Shown in pieces: positions 19,735 to 23,530 of a DNA stretch of 29,052 bases (positions are counted from its first letter, which is position 1; the number at the start of each line of letters is the position of its first letter). The stretch is from a virus (lineage: Duplodnaviria; Heunggongvirae; Uroviricota; Caudoviricetes). The notes below the pieces were generated by a model, which saw only the letters and a list, made by a program, of their open reading frames with translations, made no database searches and was not told the DNA's origin. The position numbers and the translations under genes are program-made. Location: IMG/VR virus record IMGVR_UViG_2778261515_000007; one strand, given 5' to 3'.

Positions 19735-19881
19735 TCACACAACATTCAGCCCACGGCAGTGGCACCACACTTCAAACATTCGCCTCACAACTTCACGACA
19801 GTAGAAGCCGTCAACGTCTCGCGTCAGGTCATAGCGATTGCCGTAACGCTGGCGTACCCATAGCTCAAATGCTTTATTCAT
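19735..19881 (-). CDS. Small hypothetical protein (48 aa), below the ORF-track length cutoff
   Basis: ATG at 19881 with SD AAGGA about 9 nt upstream, starting 3 nt after the stop of the preceding gene. Cys/His-containing sequence MNKAFELWVRQRYGNRYDLTRDVDGFYCREVVRRMFEVWCHCRGLNVV. Confidence 0.35.
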   Translation of the reverse strand: MNKAFELWVRQRYGNRYDLTRDVDGFYCREVVRRMFEVWCHCRGLNVV

Positions 19882-19884
19882 TCT

Positions 19885-20127
19885 CTATTTCCTTTTCATG
19901 GCTCGTAATTTTTTCAGATGAGCTTCCAGCTCTGTTTCTGCCAGAATTTGTCGGTATTCCTGGTGATCTATCCGTTCAAACGATTCATTAAAATCGCTTA
20001 TTTTTACAGATTGTGTTCGCCCATCCATTCTTCTGTACAACACAGTGTTGTTTATGCAGCGAATAATTTTTATCGGGTAACCGGCACTGTCGGTATACAG
20101 TTGCCCTTGATTAATCAAAGCGAACAT
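19885..20127 (-). CDS. Hypothetical prophage protein (80 aa)
   Basis: Internal ATG at 20127 preceded by SD AGGAG 5-6 nt upstream; the longer ORF-track start at 20250 has no RBS. Confidence 0.5.
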   Translation of the reverse strand: MFALINQGQLYTDSAGYPIKIIRCINNTVLYRRMDGRTQSVKISDFNESFERIDHQEYRQILAETELEAHLKKLRAMKRK

Positions 20128-20158
20128 TTTTTCTCCTGCTCTCTGAATAGTGAGAACT

Positions 20159-20530
20159 TCAGAGCCGTATGTTTGTAGCGGGTTCAATACTGATAATTTC
20201 TGCTGAGATAAGCATCCCGGCAAGCCAGAGTTCTCCGGACAGGTCTTCATCCTGACATATCAGTTCGCCAATATTAATGGTGGCCATGATATCTGTTTCC
20301 CCTGTGCGCTCATCCTCGACTTCTTCATAAGGCAGCGTTGCGTACAGGCTTTCAATAGCGCAACTGATAACATCCAGTCCGGTCAGATTGCCGCCGACAG
20401 TAACTTCGAATGTTTCGCGGTATTCCCATAGTCCGAAAGTTAATCGAACGGTTTGTTTTGCCATGCGTCCGCATGACGTCAGATTCGGATCATAGTTCAT
20501 TATTTGCGGTTGGGTATTATGGGTGTTCAT
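20159..20530 (-). CDS. Hypothetical acidic protein (123 aa)
   Basis: SD AAGGGA about 8 nt upstream of the ATG. Strong excess of Asp/Glu over Lys/Arg (roughly 20 vs 6). Confidence 0.5.
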   Translation of the reverse strand: MNTHNTQPQIMNYDPNLTSCGRMAKQTVRLTFGLWEYRETFEVTVGGNLTGLDVISCAIESLYATLPYEEVEDERTGETDIMATINIGELICQDEDLSGELWLAGMLISAEIISIEPATNIRL

Positions 20531-20570
20531 CTGCTTTTCCCTTAGCCCGGCAGGTCGCCGGGCATATAAG

Positions 20571-21398
20571 TTATTTAACCTGGATAAATGGTGTACTGGC
20601 GCCGCTGGTCATGTATTGCGGCAGTGTGCCGTTCCATTTATTGATGGCTTCCAGCTCCATAACACCGGGGTTCTGGCGCAGAGCTTCACCGCGTAAACGA
20701 ATAGCATCGGCTTCAGCCTGGGCTTTTGTGCGAATCGCATCAGCCTGTCCGGCAGCTTCCGCGCGCAACATGTTGGCTTCCGCTTCGCGCTGTTTAACTT
20801 CCTGCTCGCGCTGCAGTGTTTTCTGGTTCGCCGTGACTTTGGCATTAATGCTGTCGATAACGGTTGGCGGGTACTCCGGCTTACCCACATATGAGAGGCT
20901 CATTACCTGAATACCGATGGGCGTCATTTCTGCCTGAATGTCTTTAAGAGCTGCATCCAGCAGTTCAGACTTGCCGCCGTCGATAAATTTGTCGGTGGTC
21001 ATTTTGCTGGCCAGTCGATTGAGTGCGTCGGCGATCTTTTGACGCAGGTCGGTGTCGGTAATGTCATCCACGCCTTTGCGGTAGGTCTGAAACACCGTGG
21101 TAACTTTGGATGGGTCAACTTTGTAGGCCACGCCGATGTGATAGCCGATGGTTGTACCGTCACTCATCTGGAAACTGAACGGTTCATCGTAGGTCTTCAT
21201 TTGTTTGAAGGTCGGGAAGATGTAAACTTCAGTATTCCAGCCGGTCCAGTAGCGGCCAACGCCAACCACTTCACCGACGCCTTTGTCGTCGCCCAGTTTA
21301 TTTACCTTGATGCCAACATTACCTGGTTCAACGCGATCGCAACCGACAAGGCCAATGGTCGGAAGAACAATGGCTAAAGCAAAAATAACTTTTTTCAT
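20571..21398 (-). CDS. SPFH/band-7 (stomatin/prohibitin/HflC-like) lipoprotein
   Basis: Lipoprotein signal peptide with lipobox LVGC, SPFH-type core, and C-terminal Ala/Glu/Arg/Gln-rich coiled coil (QKTLQREQEVKQREAEANMLRAEAAGQADAIRTKAQAEADAIRLRGEA). Its ATG overlaps the upstream gene's TGA (ATGA). Confidence 0.75.
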   Translation of the reverse strand: MKKVIFALAIVLPTIGLVGCDRVEPGNVGIKVNKLGDDKGVGEVVGVGRYWTGWNTEVYIFPTFKQMKTYDEPFSFQMSDGTTIGYHIGVAYKVDPSKVTTVFQTYRKGVDDITDTDLRQKIADALNRLASKMTTDKFIDGGKSELLDAALKDIQAEMTPIGIQVMSLSYVGKPEYPPTVIDSINAKVTANQKTLQREQEVKQREAEANMLRAEAAGQADAIRTKAQAEADAIRLRGEALRQNPGVMELEAINKWNGTLPQYMTSGASTPFIQVK

Positions 21399-21583: not shown

Positions 21584-21759
21584 TGGTTTGTTGCATCCCG
21601 ATATTTTTAACTGACTGACAGCGCAATAAAGAGAATAATGATTTCTGTTAGTGTCAGTACTGTGGCAAGGATTAAAAGCAGTTTTACTCTGCTTAATTCA
21701 CGGTTGCTTTTCATATAAACGGTTAGTAAAAAACGGAAGAATTATATTCTTCTTAATAT

Positions 21760-22341
21760 TTAATGTGTCACTGGCGCTTCTGGCATACCATGAGTATTCA
21801 GATCGTGAATCATTTCATCCAGAAGGAGTTCAAGCTCTTCGCGCCCCATAGCAGAGACAATGAAACCATTATTAGGATCTGCGATGAGCATTTTTTGATA
21901 GAGAAACAGAACTCGCCCCATGCCTTCAGCTTCACCATATTTTTCAATAAATCCCCATTCGACATGGTTTTGCAGGGCAATGCGAAGTGGTCCTGGGTAT
22001 ATACTCATGCAACCATGCTTCCCCTTATAAATAACTGCGCGATCTGTAGTTCCGTTATCGTTAGGGATATCAATGGTGCCGTTCTTGTCTTCCACTTCAC
22101 TGATAAATTTCGCTACATATAGCCAGCGCCACTGGGCAACCTTCATATCGACTGAAAATTTGCCCAGCAGTCCGGCATCATCAGCTTCTGCAATACATTG
22201 CATGATTCTTAACCCGTGCCAGTATGGATTATCGTATTCACCATCATTAAGCCGCTGTACGGCCTCAACATAATCAATGGTTGTATTGCCAATTTTTATG
22301 CCATGTGGCGTAACTTCTGGTCGGAACTCTGAATGATTCAT
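21760..22341 (-). CDS. Hypothetical protein (193 aa), second gene of a coupled module
   Basis: ATG at 22341 with SD AAGGAG 9 nt upstream, overlapping the TGA of the upstream 62-aa gene (ATGA). No motif recognised. Confidence 0.55.
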   Translation of the reverse strand: MNHSEFRPEVTPHGIKIGNTTIDYVEAVQRLNDGEYDNPYWHGLRIMQCIAEADDAGLLGKFSVDMKVAQWRWLYVAKFISEVEDKNGTIDIPNDNGTTDRAVIYKGKHGCMSIYPGPLRIALQNHVEWGFIEKYGEAEGMGRVLFLYQKMLIADPNNGFIVSAMGREELELLLDEMIHDLNTHGMPEAPVTH

Positions 22342-22526
22342 AATGTTTGCTCCTTTGCTGGTGGAATAATCGTGTAGCCAGCTCTTTTTGCCATCCACAG
22401 AAATGTATCCATGCAGCCAACGAATTCATTATCCAACAGATGTTTTGAGTAAATTACTTCACCATTTTCAATGGTTAGCAACACTCTTACTTTTTTATGT
22501 GTTATGTTCTGTTGTTTTTCTTTCAT
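22338..22526 (-). CDS. Hypothetical small protein (62 aa), first gene of a coupled module
   Basis: ATG at 22526 with SD GGGAGA about 9 nt upstream. Stop overlaps the next start. Confidence 0.55.
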   Translation of the reverse strand: MKEKQQNITHKKVRVLLTIENGEVIYSKHLLDNEFVGCMDTFLWMAKRAGYTIIPPAKEQTL

Positions 22527-22724
22527 TTATTTATCTCCCATATGCTTTGCGCAAATACAGGTTGGCTATATGAAGATAAGAATCTCCATGTTGTGCAATG
22601 AGGCAGGCAGTTTTATACGATGCCTTATTTTTCAGGAAAGTCATAACTGAGTTCCCTCTATGAATAAAGGTTGTAACAATCCCCGGCGATAAAACCGTAA
22701 TAAACGTTCAGAGCATGTTTGTTG

Positions 22725-23090
22725 TTATTGCGCTAGTTCTTTTTCGGCAGCAGCTTTTGCATATTCACATGCAAAATTCAGAATTTCGCTGCCGAGTGTT
22801 TTTATTTCGTTATTACTGGACATATGTAATACCTGTGTTGCATGCAATAAATGATAAACATTTACCGCAAATGAGTCCGGTTCCAGACAAATGCCTTCAT
22901 AATCATCTTGCTGTGGGGTTGTTTCTGTCATTGCTCCTGAAGTGCATGCGAGCCTGTTTTTGACAATTCTCTTTCCTCTAATCACTATATCGGCTACATC
23001 TATTGCCTTTACAACCTCCGGGAGAAATTCCTGGTTTGTATAATCAAAGTTATCAACATGGAGAACAGTTATGTTTTCGAACTTTTTCAT
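22725..23090 (-). CDS. Hypothetical protein (121 aa), coupled to the upstream HTH gene
   Basis: ATG at 23090 with SD GGAG about 10 nt upstream, overlapping the HTH gene's TGA (ATGA). Confidence 0.5.
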   Translation of the reverse strand: MKKFENITVLHVDNFDYTNQEFLPEVVKAIDVADIVIRGKRIVKNRLACTSGAMTETTPQQDDYEGICLEPDSFAVNVYHLLHATQVLHMSSNNEIKTLGSEILNFACEYAKAAAEKELAQ

Positions 23091-23497
23091 GCGCAAGTAT
23101 CTCCAGCTGTTGGTTTACCGGTTAACAGCCACATCGGGTCGCAACCAAGAACATTTGCCAGTGGGATAAGCATACTGATAGTTGGTTCATACTCTCCGCT
23201 TTCCCACTGGATGATGATTTCTTCATCGAGATCGAGCAGCCTGGCGAGTTCGGCGGTTGTTAAGCCGCAGGCTTCGCGTTGGGTGCGAATCCGATTCTGT
23301 GAATTAATGGCTAAATTTTGTTTGCATGAACGCGACGCGGTGAGGCTATATTTTTGAGTTACAGCCAGGATGGAGCTGGCAAGTTCAATTAACTCAGGGT
23401 TATTGCTGCTATACAGTAGTGCTCCAGCCCCTACTAAGAGTTGAATATTCTCAAGAGCATCGTGTTGATTTGTTGGTAACCCCATATACGATGACAT
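23087..23497 (-). CDS. XRE-family HTH protein with C-terminal HTH and uncharacterised N-terminal domain
   Basis: C-terminal LTTAELARLLDLDEEIIIQWESGEYEPTISMLIPLANVLGCDPMWLLTG is a Cro/C1-type HTH. SD AGAGG is 9 nt upstream of the ATG at 23497. First gene of the leftward operon, downstream of operator-like repeats. Confidence 0.55.
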   Translation of the reverse strand: MSSYMGLPTNQHDALENIQLLVGAGALLYSSNNPELIELASSILAVTQKYSLTASRSCKQNLAINSQNRIRTQREACGLTTAELARLLDLDEEIIIQWESGEYEPTISMLIPLANVLGCDPMWLLTGKPTAGDTCA

Positions 23498-23530
23498 TTT
23501 CCTCATCCTCTATAATTGTTTTGGTGAGTT

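What the first reader, a model, noticed from the sequence alone, without database searches (positions are those of the whole stretch)
19735..23506. Leftward early operon of the prophage lacks recognisable N, recombination or cIII genes and consists of stacked coupled cargo modules
Between the cI-like repressor and xis-int, where lambda carries N, cIII, kil, gam, bet and exo, all eleven or so ORFs are unrecognised. At least three consecutive gene pairs show ATGA start-stop overlap (23090/23087, 22341/22338, 21398/21395). This is an unusually complete replacement of the canonical leftward operon by accessory genes, and such regions are known hotspots for superinfection-exclusion and anti-phage genes.
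Basis: partly seen in the sequence, partly recalled or inferred. Interest (0 to 1): 0.6.

Follow-up and report, generated by a model that had tools for sequence, protein, structure and literature searches.

The report
Ordinary phiP27-type prophage early-left operon
This is the standard repressor-controlled early leftward operon of a phiP27-like E. coli prophage: it lacks lambda's N, recombination and cIII genes, as the whole phage lineage does, and it contains one widely travelled two-gene membrane cassette (a small membrane protein plus an SPFH lipoprotein) of unknown function.

Summary
The ORFs and the three ATGA start-stop overlaps are real. No ORF matches an N, Red/RecET/Erf/Sak, Gam, Kil or cIII family, nor any PADLOC defence model. 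The arrangement is not unusual. Window 19732-23289 is 95.4% identical to genes L03-L10 of Stx2e phage phiP27, and 122 of 5426 complete E. coli genomes carry at least 80% of it.

The operon starts at a near-consensus promoter (23575-23547) that overlaps an operator-like element shared with the cI/cro region. It has no strong internal terminator and no boxA, and it runs into xis-int. It therefore reads as a cI-repressed, N-independent early lytic transcript, not lysogen-expressed cargo.

Its ends are constant among relatives: an HTH regulator plus a paralogous partner at one end, DUF4222-orf48-xis-int at the other. The middle is made of interchangeable cassettes.

The one clear mobile module is a 62-aa two-helix membrane protein coupled to an SPFH lipoprotein with a signal for retention in the inner membrane. 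The same pair occurs in P2-like, P1-like and SSU5-like phages and as gp19-gp20 of the virulent phage N4, which points to a role in lytic growth.

orf193 and DUF5406 give confident models with no known fold. No ssrA lies in the window. Interest is low.

The parts
23643..24335 (-). cI-type repressor (HTH plus S24 autopeptidase). It marks the right boundary of the region.
   Evidence: Pfam Peptidase_S24 2e-17 plus HTH_19/HTH_3. PGAP calls it 'LexA family transcriptional regulator'.
24405..24427 (.). Operator-like element in the cI/cro intergenic region (OR side).
   Evidence: A 23-nt direct repeat, 78% identical to 23545-23567. The core ATAGGTAAAYCKAT was found only at these two places in the window.
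23602..23620 (-). Intrinsic terminator directly after cI.
   Evidence: An 8-bp stem with 5 GC pairs followed by T8.
23547..23575 (-). pL-like early leftward promoter, TTGACA-17-TATTAT.
   Evidence: 11 of 12 consensus matches, the best site in 18000-25200.
23545..23567 (.). OL-like operator overlapping the spacer and -10 of pL. It contains the palindrome ATAGGTAAACCTAT.
23087..23506 (-). HTH139: first gene of the operon. It has an N-terminal helical domain plus a C-terminal Cro/CI-type HTH. PGAP starts it at 23497.
   Evidence: Pfam HTH_3 8e-12. phrog_4836 7.8e-51. The HTH region resembles the P22 C2 N-terminal domain at 9e-6. Identity to phiP27 breaks at 23289, inside the gene.
22725..23090 (-). 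orf121: ATGA-coupled to HTH139. Its C-terminal part is paralogous to the HTH139 N-terminal domain.
   Evidence: phrog_5451 5e-81 over the full length. BLASTP of residues 77-117 against HTH139 20-60 gives 32% identity, E 6e-4. All 24 distinct variants are intact. PGAP annotates only a 68-aa version.
22531..22644 (-). orf37: small ORF, not annotated by PGAP.
   Evidence: Intact in all 18 distinct variants. Polymorphic sites by codon position are 12/6/22. No PHROG hit.
22338..22526 (-). orf62: small basic protein, ATGA-coupled to orf193.
   Evidence: phrog_340 3e-24. No PDB sequence match.
21760..22341 (-). orf193: soluble acidic protein of a small orphan family.
21728..21752 (-). Weak AT-rich hairpin plus U-tract just after orf193. 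It may be a partial terminator or a cassette boundary.
   Evidence: Read from the sequence and seen in the fold. It is below the scanner's criteria. The z-score of the whole spacer is -0.17.
21607..21714 (-). orf35: doubtful hydrophobic mini-ORF in the spacer. It is present or absent together with orf193.
   Evidence: No recognisable ribosome-binding site upstream. Polymorphic sites by codon position 10/4/10. Co-occurs with orf193.
21395..21583 (-). TM62: 62-aa two-helix membrane protein, ATGA-coupled to the SPFH gene. Homologue of N4 gp19.
   Evidence: phrog_1130 1.5e-23. GRAVY 1.23. Ungapped alignment with the partners from N4, P88, RCS47, Cyrano, Pantoea, Yersinia and Lelliottia, with invariant Y18, L21, P23, S27, G37, P45.
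20571..21398 (-). SPFH/Band-7 lipoprotein, lipobox LVGC followed by Asp at +2. Homologue of N4 gp20 and phiP27 L05.
   Evidence: Pfam Band_7 107.8 bits. phrog_200 5.5e-114. Weak similarity to HflK/HflC. Polymorphic sites by codon position 23/15/159. 383 phage records hold a homologue.
20159..20530 (-). DUF5406 protein, acidic (pI 4.07).
19885..20127 (-). DUF4222 protein (80-aa form).
   Evidence: Pfam DUF4222 6.9e-15. The PHROG match covers residues 42-121 of the long ORF, which favours the 20127 start.
19735..19881 (-). orf48: small conserved protein next to xis.
   Evidence: phrog_3871 3.4e-35. All 27 distinct variants intact, polymorphic sites by codon position 7/8/20.
19517..19726 (-). Excisionase.
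   Evidence: phrog_2917 1.5e-40.
18390..19562 (-). Tyrosine integrase, the last gene of the leftward transcript.
   Evidence: PGAP calls it 'tyrosine-type recombinase/integrase'.

Best explanation
The region is the cI-repressed, N-independent early leftward (pL) operon of a phiP27-family lambdoid prophage.

Shown:
- A terminator closes cI.
- A near-consensus promoter with an operator-like element shared with the cI/cro region follows it.
- Ten to eleven tightly packed genes then run without a strong terminator or boxA into xis-int.
- The block is 95% identical to phiP27 L03-L10.
- Its ends are constant among relatives and its middle is made of interchangeable cassettes.
- No gene belongs to a known N, recombination, cIII, Gam, Kil or defence family.

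Inferred:
- In the lysogen cI shuts the operon off.
- After SOS-induced cI autocleavage, or on infection, one polycistronic mRNA is made. Translational coupling sets the ratios within three pairs: HTH139 with orf121, orf62 with orf193, and TM62 with SPFH.
- HTH139 is an early DNA-binding regulator that belongs to the immunity module. orf121 shares its N-terminal domain and probably modulates it by heteromer formation.
- The small soluble proteins orf37, orf62, orf193, DUF5406, DUF4222 and orf48 are dispensable early host-takeover functions, comparable to lambda's ea/b-region genes.
- TM62 and the SPFH lipoprotein form a complex on the periplasmic face of the inner membrane. It acts during lytic development, because the same pair is kept by virulent phages such as N4. 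The most likely roles are remodelling or guarding the inner membrane: HflK/C-like control of FtsH, or blocking DNA entry by a superinfecting phage.
For: Identity and spread:
- The window is 100% identical to ETEC prophages.
- It is 95.4% identical to phiP27 over 19732-23289.
- 122 of 5426 complete genomes carry at least 80% of the operon.

Regulation:
- Promoter, terminator and operator repeat.
- No other minus-strand terminator-like site was found in 19735-23506.
- No boxA lies in the operon and no Rfam element was found.

Gene content:
- Pfam, PHROGs, NCBIfam and PADLOC.
- All ORFs stay intact across variants, with third-position bias strongest in SPFH (23/15/159) and orf193 (57/34/109).

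Modularity:
- In 80 IMG/VR loci the TM62-SPFH pair is constant, while orf37/orf62/orf193/orf35, DUF5406 and orf121 are replaced by alternative cassettes.
- Sister prophages lack the SPFH cassette altogether.

Cassette mobility and lytic context:
- The same pair lies in the P88 early operon, in P1-like RCS47 and in SSU5-like Cyrano.
- It occurs in Salmonella, Pantoea, Kluyvera, Yersinia and Lelliottia.
- It occurs as N4 gp19-gp20, with 61.6% identity for the SPFH protein.

Paralogy of orf121 and HTH139.
Against: - No expression data exist. The promoter and terminator scans are simple consensus matches, so a weak internal promoter (for example the 9/12 site at 22931-22902) or leaky lysogenic expression cannot be excluded.
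- The operator assignment rests on one shared 23-nt element at 78% identity.
- The 80 IMG/VR loci were selected through a near-identical SPFH gene, so its 'constancy' there is by construction.
- The functions proposed for every protein are inference. Two confident structure models gave no informative match.
- In N4 and in a Vi01-like phage the SPFH gene sits near genes annotated as 'superinfection exclusion'. This keeps an inter-phage conflict role open.
Confidence: 0.8

Rival explanations
1. One reading: the operon is a stack of accessory cargo whose main role is superinfection exclusion or anti-phage defence of the lysogen.
For: The middle of the operon is exchanged cassette by cassette among relatives. 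The SPFH lipoprotein is placed where it could block DNA entry at the inner membrane. In N4 and PhiSH19 the SPFH gene lies near a gene annotated as 'superinfection exclusion'. Several products are small and acidic.
Against: PADLOC gives no hits other than generic HTH. The genes lie behind a cI-controlled promoter with no convincing promoter of their own. The SPFH pair is kept by obligately virulent phages that make no lysogens. In P88 it lies inside the cox-to-replication-gene early block. No paper among the top-ranked results linked SPFH with anti-phage terms.
Confidence: 0.12
2. Functional replacement rather than loss: the TM62-SPFH pair is an HflK/C mimic that tunes FtsH proteolysis, doing the job of lambda cIII in the lysis-lysogeny decision.
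For: The closest solved relative by sequence is E. coli HflK from the HflK/C-FtsH complex, although the match is weak (E 1.3e-3). There are also weak HflC/HflK NCBIfam hits. The lipobox with Asp at +2 predicts a periplasm-facing protein retained in the inner membrane, the same side as the HflK/C SPFH domains (sequence; the Lol-avoidance rule is established knowledge). The idea has been raised in print for another phage-borne SPFH protein (PMC4936722). The protein is under strong purifying selection, which fits a conserved host partner.
Against: Scores are far below the HflK/HflC equivalog cut-offs (24.7 against 134.4 bits). No cII homologue was identified in the window. Virulent phages such as N4 have no lysogeny decision, yet they keep the pair. 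No interaction data exist.
Confidence: 0.15
3. Cryptic N or recombination analogues: one of the unknown proteins (orf193, DUF5406 or HTH139) is an unrecognised recombinase, nuclease inhibitor or antiterminator.
For: orf193 is about the size of single-strand annealing proteins and is translationally coupled to a small basic protein. HTH139 occupies the position of N.
Confidence: 0.04
4. The ORFs are decaying remnants of a defective prophage and have no function.
For: In a genome identical over window 12500-24400, the prophage dnaB is cut by an IS3 element.
Against: Every ORF is intact in 18 to 54 distinct sequence variants. Substitutions concentrate at third codon positions. The same genes are present in the viable phage phiP27.
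Confidence: 0.03

Closest known systems
Early-left region of Stx2e phage phiP27 (genes L03-L10; AJ298298 / NC_003356)
   Same: 95.4% nucleotide identity over window 19732-23289. The gene order is the same: HTH, 121-aa protein, 62-aa, 193-aa, SPFH lipoprotein, DUF5406, DUF4222, then xis-int.
   Different: The integrase/excisionase module differs (28% identity). The cI/cro immunity region and the N-terminal half of the HTH protein also differ. The small ORFs TM62, orf37 and orf48 are not annotated in phiP27.
Lambda pL operon (N, ea10, ral, sieB, cIII, kil, gam, bet, exo, ea genes, xis, int)
   Same: Same position and logic: it is transcribed leftward from a repressor-controlled promoter next to cI, and it ends in xis-int. 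It is filled with small, mostly dispensable early genes.
   Different: There is no N, nut/boxA, Red, Gam, Kil or cIII homologue. No strong internal terminators occur, so antitermination is not needed. The first gene is a Cro/CI-type HTH protein.
Phage N4 gp19-gp20 (membrane protein plus lipoprotein)
   Same: The SPFH lipoprotein is 61.6% identical over its full length. The small two-helix partner aligns without gaps and shares six invariant residues. The two genes overlap.
   Different: N4 is virulent, and there the pair lies beside the early/middle RNA polymerase genes. No functional study was found in the paper library searched.
SPFH-NfeD operons and HflK/C
   Same: An SPFH/Band-7 gene is coupled to a small membrane-protein gene. 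The SPFH domain plus coiled coil is predicted to face the periplasm, as in HflK/C. Sequence similarity to HflK is weak.
   Different: The partner has no NfeD domain. The SPFH protein is anchored by a lipid, not a transmembrane helix. It scores far below the HflK/HflC family cut-offs.
Early regions of P2-like phage P88, P1-like RCS47 and SSU5-like Cyrano
   Same: They carry the same 2TM plus SPFH cassette at 75-92% nucleotide identity, inside early or replication gene blocks.
   Different: All other genes of the window's operon are absent. The small ORF is unannotated in RCS47.

Membership tests
phiP27-like early-left operon | High nucleotide identity and conserved gene order with phiP27 L03-L10, between a cI-type repressor and xis-int | tested here: met
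   95.4% identity over 73% of the query. Synteny shown.
Lambda-type N-antiterminated pL operon | An N-family protein encoded as the first pL gene | tested here: not met
   No N family hit in Pfam, PHROGs or NCBIfam. The first gene is an HTH_3 protein.
Lambda-type N-antiterminated pL operon | A nut site (boxA plus boxB) downstream of pL, and terminators that require readthrough | tested here: not met
   No boxA consensus lies in the operon. No terminator-like site was found on the minus strand inside 19735-23506. Only a weak AT-rich hairpin follows orf193. boxB was not searched separately.
Phage general recombination modules (Red-beta/RecT, Erf, Sak, Sak4, Exo/YqaJ, Gam) | A profile match to one of these families | tested here: not met
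   No hits at E up to 0.01 (Pfam, NCBIfam) or 0.001 (PHROGs).
Phage general recombination modules (Red-beta/RecT, Erf, Sak, Sak4, Exo/YqaJ, Gam) | Fold similarity of the largest unknown protein to a solved annealing protein or nuclease | tested here: not met
Lambda cIII / Kil | A Pfam family match | tested here: not met
   No hit. orf37 was scanned only against PHROGs and orf35 only against PHROGs; neither was scanned against Pfam.
SPFH / Band 7 superfamily | Pfam PF01145 above the gathering score | tested here: met
   107.8 bits against a cut-off of 23.6.
HflK / HflC (FtsH modulators) | NCBIfam equivalog score above the cut-off | tested here: not met
   TIGR01932 scores 24.7 against 134.4 and TIGR01933 scores 22.7 against 159.4.
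HflK / HflC (FtsH modulators) | Physical association with FtsH | not testable with these tools
   Needs pull-down or cryo-EM.
SPFH-NfeD operon | A partner gene encoding an NfeD (PF01957) domain | tested here: not met
   TM62 has no Pfam hit. It is 62 aa with only two hydrophobic helices.
Bacterial lipoprotein retained in the inner membrane | A signal peptide with the lipobox L-x-G-C and Asp at +2 | tested here: met
   The sequence reads ...IGLVGC|DRVEPG. The GC-D motif is kept in 8 of the 9 relatives whose N-terminus was read; one has Ala at +2. Actual lipidation and localisation were not tested.
N4 gp19-gp20-type cassette | A full-length homologue of gp20 immediately preceded by a gp19-like two-helix protein | tested here: met
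   61.6% identity to gp20. The genes are adjacent and overlap in N4. The partners align without gaps and share six invariant residues.
Known anti-phage defence systems (PADLOC-DB 2.0) | A match of any gene product to a defence-system model | tested here: not met
   Nine of the eleven operon ORFs were scanned. Eight had no hit, and HTH139 hit only generic HTH models such as RmrA and CapH. orf35 and orf37 were not scanned.
Moron (autonomously expressed prophage cargo) | Its own promoter and terminator flanking the gene | tested here: inconclusive
   The consensus scan finds no promoter upstream of TM62-SPFH and no terminator after it. The scan is crude and no transcript data exist.
Cro/CI (XRE) HTH regulators | HTH_3 domain above the Pfam cut-off | tested here: met
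   HTH139 scores 45.5 bits against 23. The nearest solved domain is the P22 C2 N-terminal domain.

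The most novel reading that the evidence does not exclude
The two-gene cassette (a 62-aa two-helix membrane protein plus an inner-membrane-anchored periplasmic SPFH lipoprotein) is conserved from virulent N4 to phiP27-, P2-, P1- and SSU5-like temperate phages. It may build an HflK/C-like cage on the periplasmic face of the inner membrane. Phages would deploy this cage early in infection, either to retune FtsH proteolysis or to close the membrane to DNA of superinfecting phages. 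That would be a widespread and so far uncharacterised phage membrane-takeover module.
Probability: 0.2. Interest if true: 0.6.

Novelty: new member of a known kind. Interest (0 to 1): 0.22.

Why it matters
As a finding about this window it matters little. The apparent oddity, a lambdoid left arm without N, Red or cIII, is the normal state of a phage lineage sequenced more than twenty years ago and common in E. coli.

Three by-products are useful:
1. The record label 'serine protease' for the SPFH gene is unfounded.
2. The SPFH lipoprotein always travels with a small, often unannotated, two-helix membrane protein. This pair is shared by temperate and virulent phages, so it is a defined and testable unit.
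3. orf193 and DUF5406 are confident structural orphans that could be screened for host-takeover or anti-defence activity.

Tried and rejected
- Profile searches of the ORFs against Pfam, PHROGs, NCBIfam and PADLOC found no N, recombination, cIII or defence family.
- Sequence searches of eight proteins against PDB found only generic HTH and weak HflK matches.
- The orf48 match to TAL effectors (E 1e-15, with no individually significant stretch) was judged a repeat-summing artefact.
- An exhaustive profile search for orf193 found only a small stand-alone family with no informative fusions.
- Rfam at a permissive threshold over the operon found nothing credible. Folding the 176-nt spacer upstream of TM62 gave a z-score of -0.17.
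- The boxA search found only one chance hit, in int on the wrong strand.
- Literature searches for SPFH with anti-phage terms, for DUF5406/DUF4222 and for N4 gp19/gp20 gave no functional study.
- The phiP27 genome paper (PMC127862) is not held.
- The idea that the prophage sits at ssrA was rejected.

Full report
**What is in the sequence**

On the minus strand the window carries, in order:
- a cI-type repressor (23643-24335; HTH plus Peptidase_S24);
- an intrinsic terminator (23620-23602);
- a near-consensus sigma-70 promoter, TTGACA-17-TATTAT (23575-23547, 11 of 12 matches);
- a tight run of ORFs: HTH139 (23087-23506), orf121 (22725-23090), orf37 (22531-22644), orf62 (22338-22526), orf193 (21760-22341), a doubtful orf35 (21607-21714), TM62 (21395-21583), an SPFH protein (20571-21398), DUF5406 (20159-20530), DUF4222 (19885-20127) and orf48 (19735-19881);
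- xis (19517-19726) and int (18390-19562).

They are not remarkable. By my count of the coordinates in the PGAP table for the same prophage, four of eight junctions in the rightward operon also overlap by 4 nt.

Across 18 to 54 distinct sequence variants collected from related loci, every ORF stays open. Substitutions pile up at third codon positions, most strongly in SPFH (23/15/159) and orf193 (57/34/109). Only orf35 shows no such bias.

**Regulation**

The promoter overlaps a 23-nt element (23545-23567, containing the palindrome ATAGGTAAACCTAT). Its only other copy in the window lies in the cI/cro intergenic region (24405-24427, 78% identity). This is what an OL/OR operator pair looks like.

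No other terminator-like site was found on the minus strand between the promoter and xis. Only a weak AT-rich hairpin with a U-tract follows orf193. No boxA consensus lies in the operon. Rfam finds no RNA element there, even at a permissive threshold.

I therefore read the region as a repressor-controlled leftward early operon that needs no N-type antitermination to reach xis-int. That it is silent in the lysogen is an inference from this anatomy. It has not been shown.

**Profile and structure tests of the claim that nothing is recognisable**

The recognised domains are as follows.
- HTH139 has a Cro/CI-type HTH. The nearest solved relative is the P22 C2 N-terminal domain.
- The 275-aa protein is an SPFH/Band-7 protein (107.8 bits).
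- Two others belong to DUF5406 and DUF4222.
- Nine of the eleven ORFs fall in PHROG families, nearly all of unknown function. The two mini-ORFs orf35 and orf37 match none.

None matches N, Red-beta/RecT, Erf, Sak, Exo, Gam, Kil or cIII. PADLOC returns nothing except generic HTH matches.

The absence is real as far as these tools can see.

**Is it unusual? No.**

- Window 19732-23289 is 95.4% identical to phiP27 nt 1641-5777. That span covers genes L03-L10 of the Stx2e-converting phage. Its genome paper is cited in PMC8065619 but is not held in the library.
- The same block, at about 86% identity, is in a series of Stx2a/Stx2d-converting phages.
- Of 5426 complete E. coli genomes, 122 carry at least 80% of the operon and 1058 carry some piece.

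The window's prophage differs from phiP27 in its integrase module, in its cI/cro immunity region, and in the N-terminal half of HTH139. The identity break is at 23289, inside that gene.

The annotated part of the rightward arm (cro, rha, ash, O-like HTH, DnaC-like, DnaB, Q) also has no recombination gene. Doing without one is a trait of the lineage.

**Backbone or cargo?**

In 80 IMG/VR loci fetched through the SPFH gene, the ends of the operon recur:
- the HTH regulator plus a protein carrying the phrog_4587 domain next to cI;
- DUF4222 and orf48 next to xis.

The middle is variable:
- orf37/orf62/orf193/orf35 alternates with a 119-aa/71-aa/130-aa set;
- DUF5406 alternates with a Rha-like set;
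- orf121 alternates with 63- to 80-aa proteins.

Sister prophages found through other parts of the operon lack the SPFH cassette. They carry Ea22-like, DUF551 and DUF4752 genes instead.

This is the ordinary mosaicism of lambdoid early-left regions and not a special replacement event.

**The one module that stands out**

TM62 and the SPFH gene are ATGA-coupled. The SPFH gene has a higher GC content than its neighbours (0.51 against 0.35-0.47).

The SPFH protein starts with a lipoprotein signal...IGLVGC|D. The Asp at +2 is the classic inner-membrane retention signal (established Lol-avoidance rule). This predicts a periplasm-facing protein anchored in the inner membrane.

The same pair occurs:
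- inside the early gene block of P2-like phage P88;
- in P1-like RCS47, where the small ORF is unannotated;
- in the SSU5-like phage-plasmid Cyrano;
- in Salmonella, Pantoea, Kluyvera, Yersinia pestis and Lelliottia genomes.

Full-length homologues of the lipoprotein exist in 383 phage records. These include N4-like podoviruses, roughly 145-kb Salmonella and Klebsiella phages, Erwinia phiEa104-type phages, 45-kb Pseudomonas phages, phiCbK, crAss-like phages and Lak phages.

In N4 the pair is gp19-gp20. The SPFH protein is 61.6% identical, and the genes overlap, next to the early/middle RNA polymerase genes. The small partners align without gaps and share six invariant residues.

A pair kept by strictly virulent phages, and placed in early gene blocks of temperate ones, most likely works during lytic growth.

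What it does is open. Similarity to HflK/HflC is weak and far below the family cut-offs, and the partner has no NfeD domain. An FtsH-modulating, cIII-like role has been suggested in print for another phage-borne SPFH protein (PMC4936722). A block to superinfecting DNA at the inner membrane is equally possible. In N4 and PhiSH19 the gene lies near ones annotated as 'superinfection exclusion'. I give each of these roughly 0.1-0.15.

The record label 'serine protease' for this gene has no support in the domain searches.

**The regulator pair**

The N-terminal domain of HTH139 (residues 20-60) is paralogous to the C-terminal part of orf121 (residues 77-117; 32% identity, E 6e-4). Both hit phrog_4587, which also exists as stand-alone 63-aa proteins at the same position in sister prophages.

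A plausible but untested reading has two parts. HTH139 is an early DNA-binding regulator that travels with the immunity region. The HTH-less paralogue modulates it through the shared domain.

**Other checks**

The window holds no tRNA or tmRNA. In E. coli rl0044, a genome identical over window 12500-24400, no ssrA is annotated within 38 kb left of int. The integrase abuts ypjA. The suggested comparison 'with related prophages at ssrA' therefore starts from a wrong premise.

**Verdict**

The region is a new member (new immunity and integration modules) of a known kind, the phiP27-type early-left operon. It has no detectable link to known defence systems.

The residual novelty lies in the uncharacterised gp19/gp20-type SPFH cassette and in two structural orphans. 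These are properties of large, already catalogued phage protein families and are not peculiar to this locus.

Noticed in passing
window 26032-26220 (+): Rfam hits above the gathering score to isrK (26032-26108, 63 bits) and C4 antisense RNA (26133-26220, 84 bits). Both lie inside the ORF that PGAP calls 'ash family protein' (25975-26637). This looks like a P1/P7 immI-type antisense control of an antirepressor, that is, a second immunity layer. The protein annotation there may be spurious or overlapping.
   Followed up: no
window 24782-25105 (-), terminator 24753-24725 (-): A bssS-family gene (phrog_10846; weak NCBIfam BssS hit) lies antisense between cro and rha and has its own strong terminator. 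This is the classic moron layout. It is a better candidate for lysogen-expressed cargo than anything in the pL operon.
   Followed up: partly
window 19735-19881 (orf48): phmmer gives a whole-sequence E of 1e-15 to TAL effector repeat proteins in PDB, but no individually significant stretch. Residues 22-46 weakly resemble the second helix of each 34-aa TALE repeat. This is most likely a repeat-summing artefact.
   Followed up: no
window 22725-23090 and 23087-23506: The orf121 C-terminus and the HTH139 N-terminus are paralogous (phrog_4587 domain). The same domain occurs as stand-alone 63-aa proteins in sister prophages (L055 5038-5229, L046 5038-5229). PGAP annotates only a 68-aa version of orf121.
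   Followed up: partly
L005 (RCS47) about 4795-5020; L002 (phiP27) 3304-3492: The small two-helix membrane ORF upstream of the SPFH gene is unannotated in P1-like RCS47 and in phiP27. The SPFH gene itself is labelled 'serine protease' in several records, although it has only a Band_7 domain.
   Followed up: yes
window 18071-18389 and L102 (rl0044): The prophage integrase directly abuts the autotransporter gene ypjA. The left half of the window holds remnants of a CP4-57-like island and IS elements, but no ssrA. Other strains have the same int-xis followed by unrelated content. In rl0044 the prophage dnaB is cut by an IS3 element at the right end of the window.
   Followed up: partly
L105 (N4) 1907-2221; PhiSH19 75,137-75,457: In two unrelated virulent phages the SPFH gene lies near a gene annotated as 'superinfection exclusion' (in N4, gp18, 'similar to P22 gp17'). 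The association might be meaningful.
   Followed up: no
L055/L046/L076 6363-6755: The alternative cassette in sister prophages encodes a 130-aa, very arginine-rich protein (phrog_1886, ...RAHQRTIRRLRRLIARKQ...). It has not been examined for RNA-binding or N-like properties and is absent from this window.
   Followed up: no
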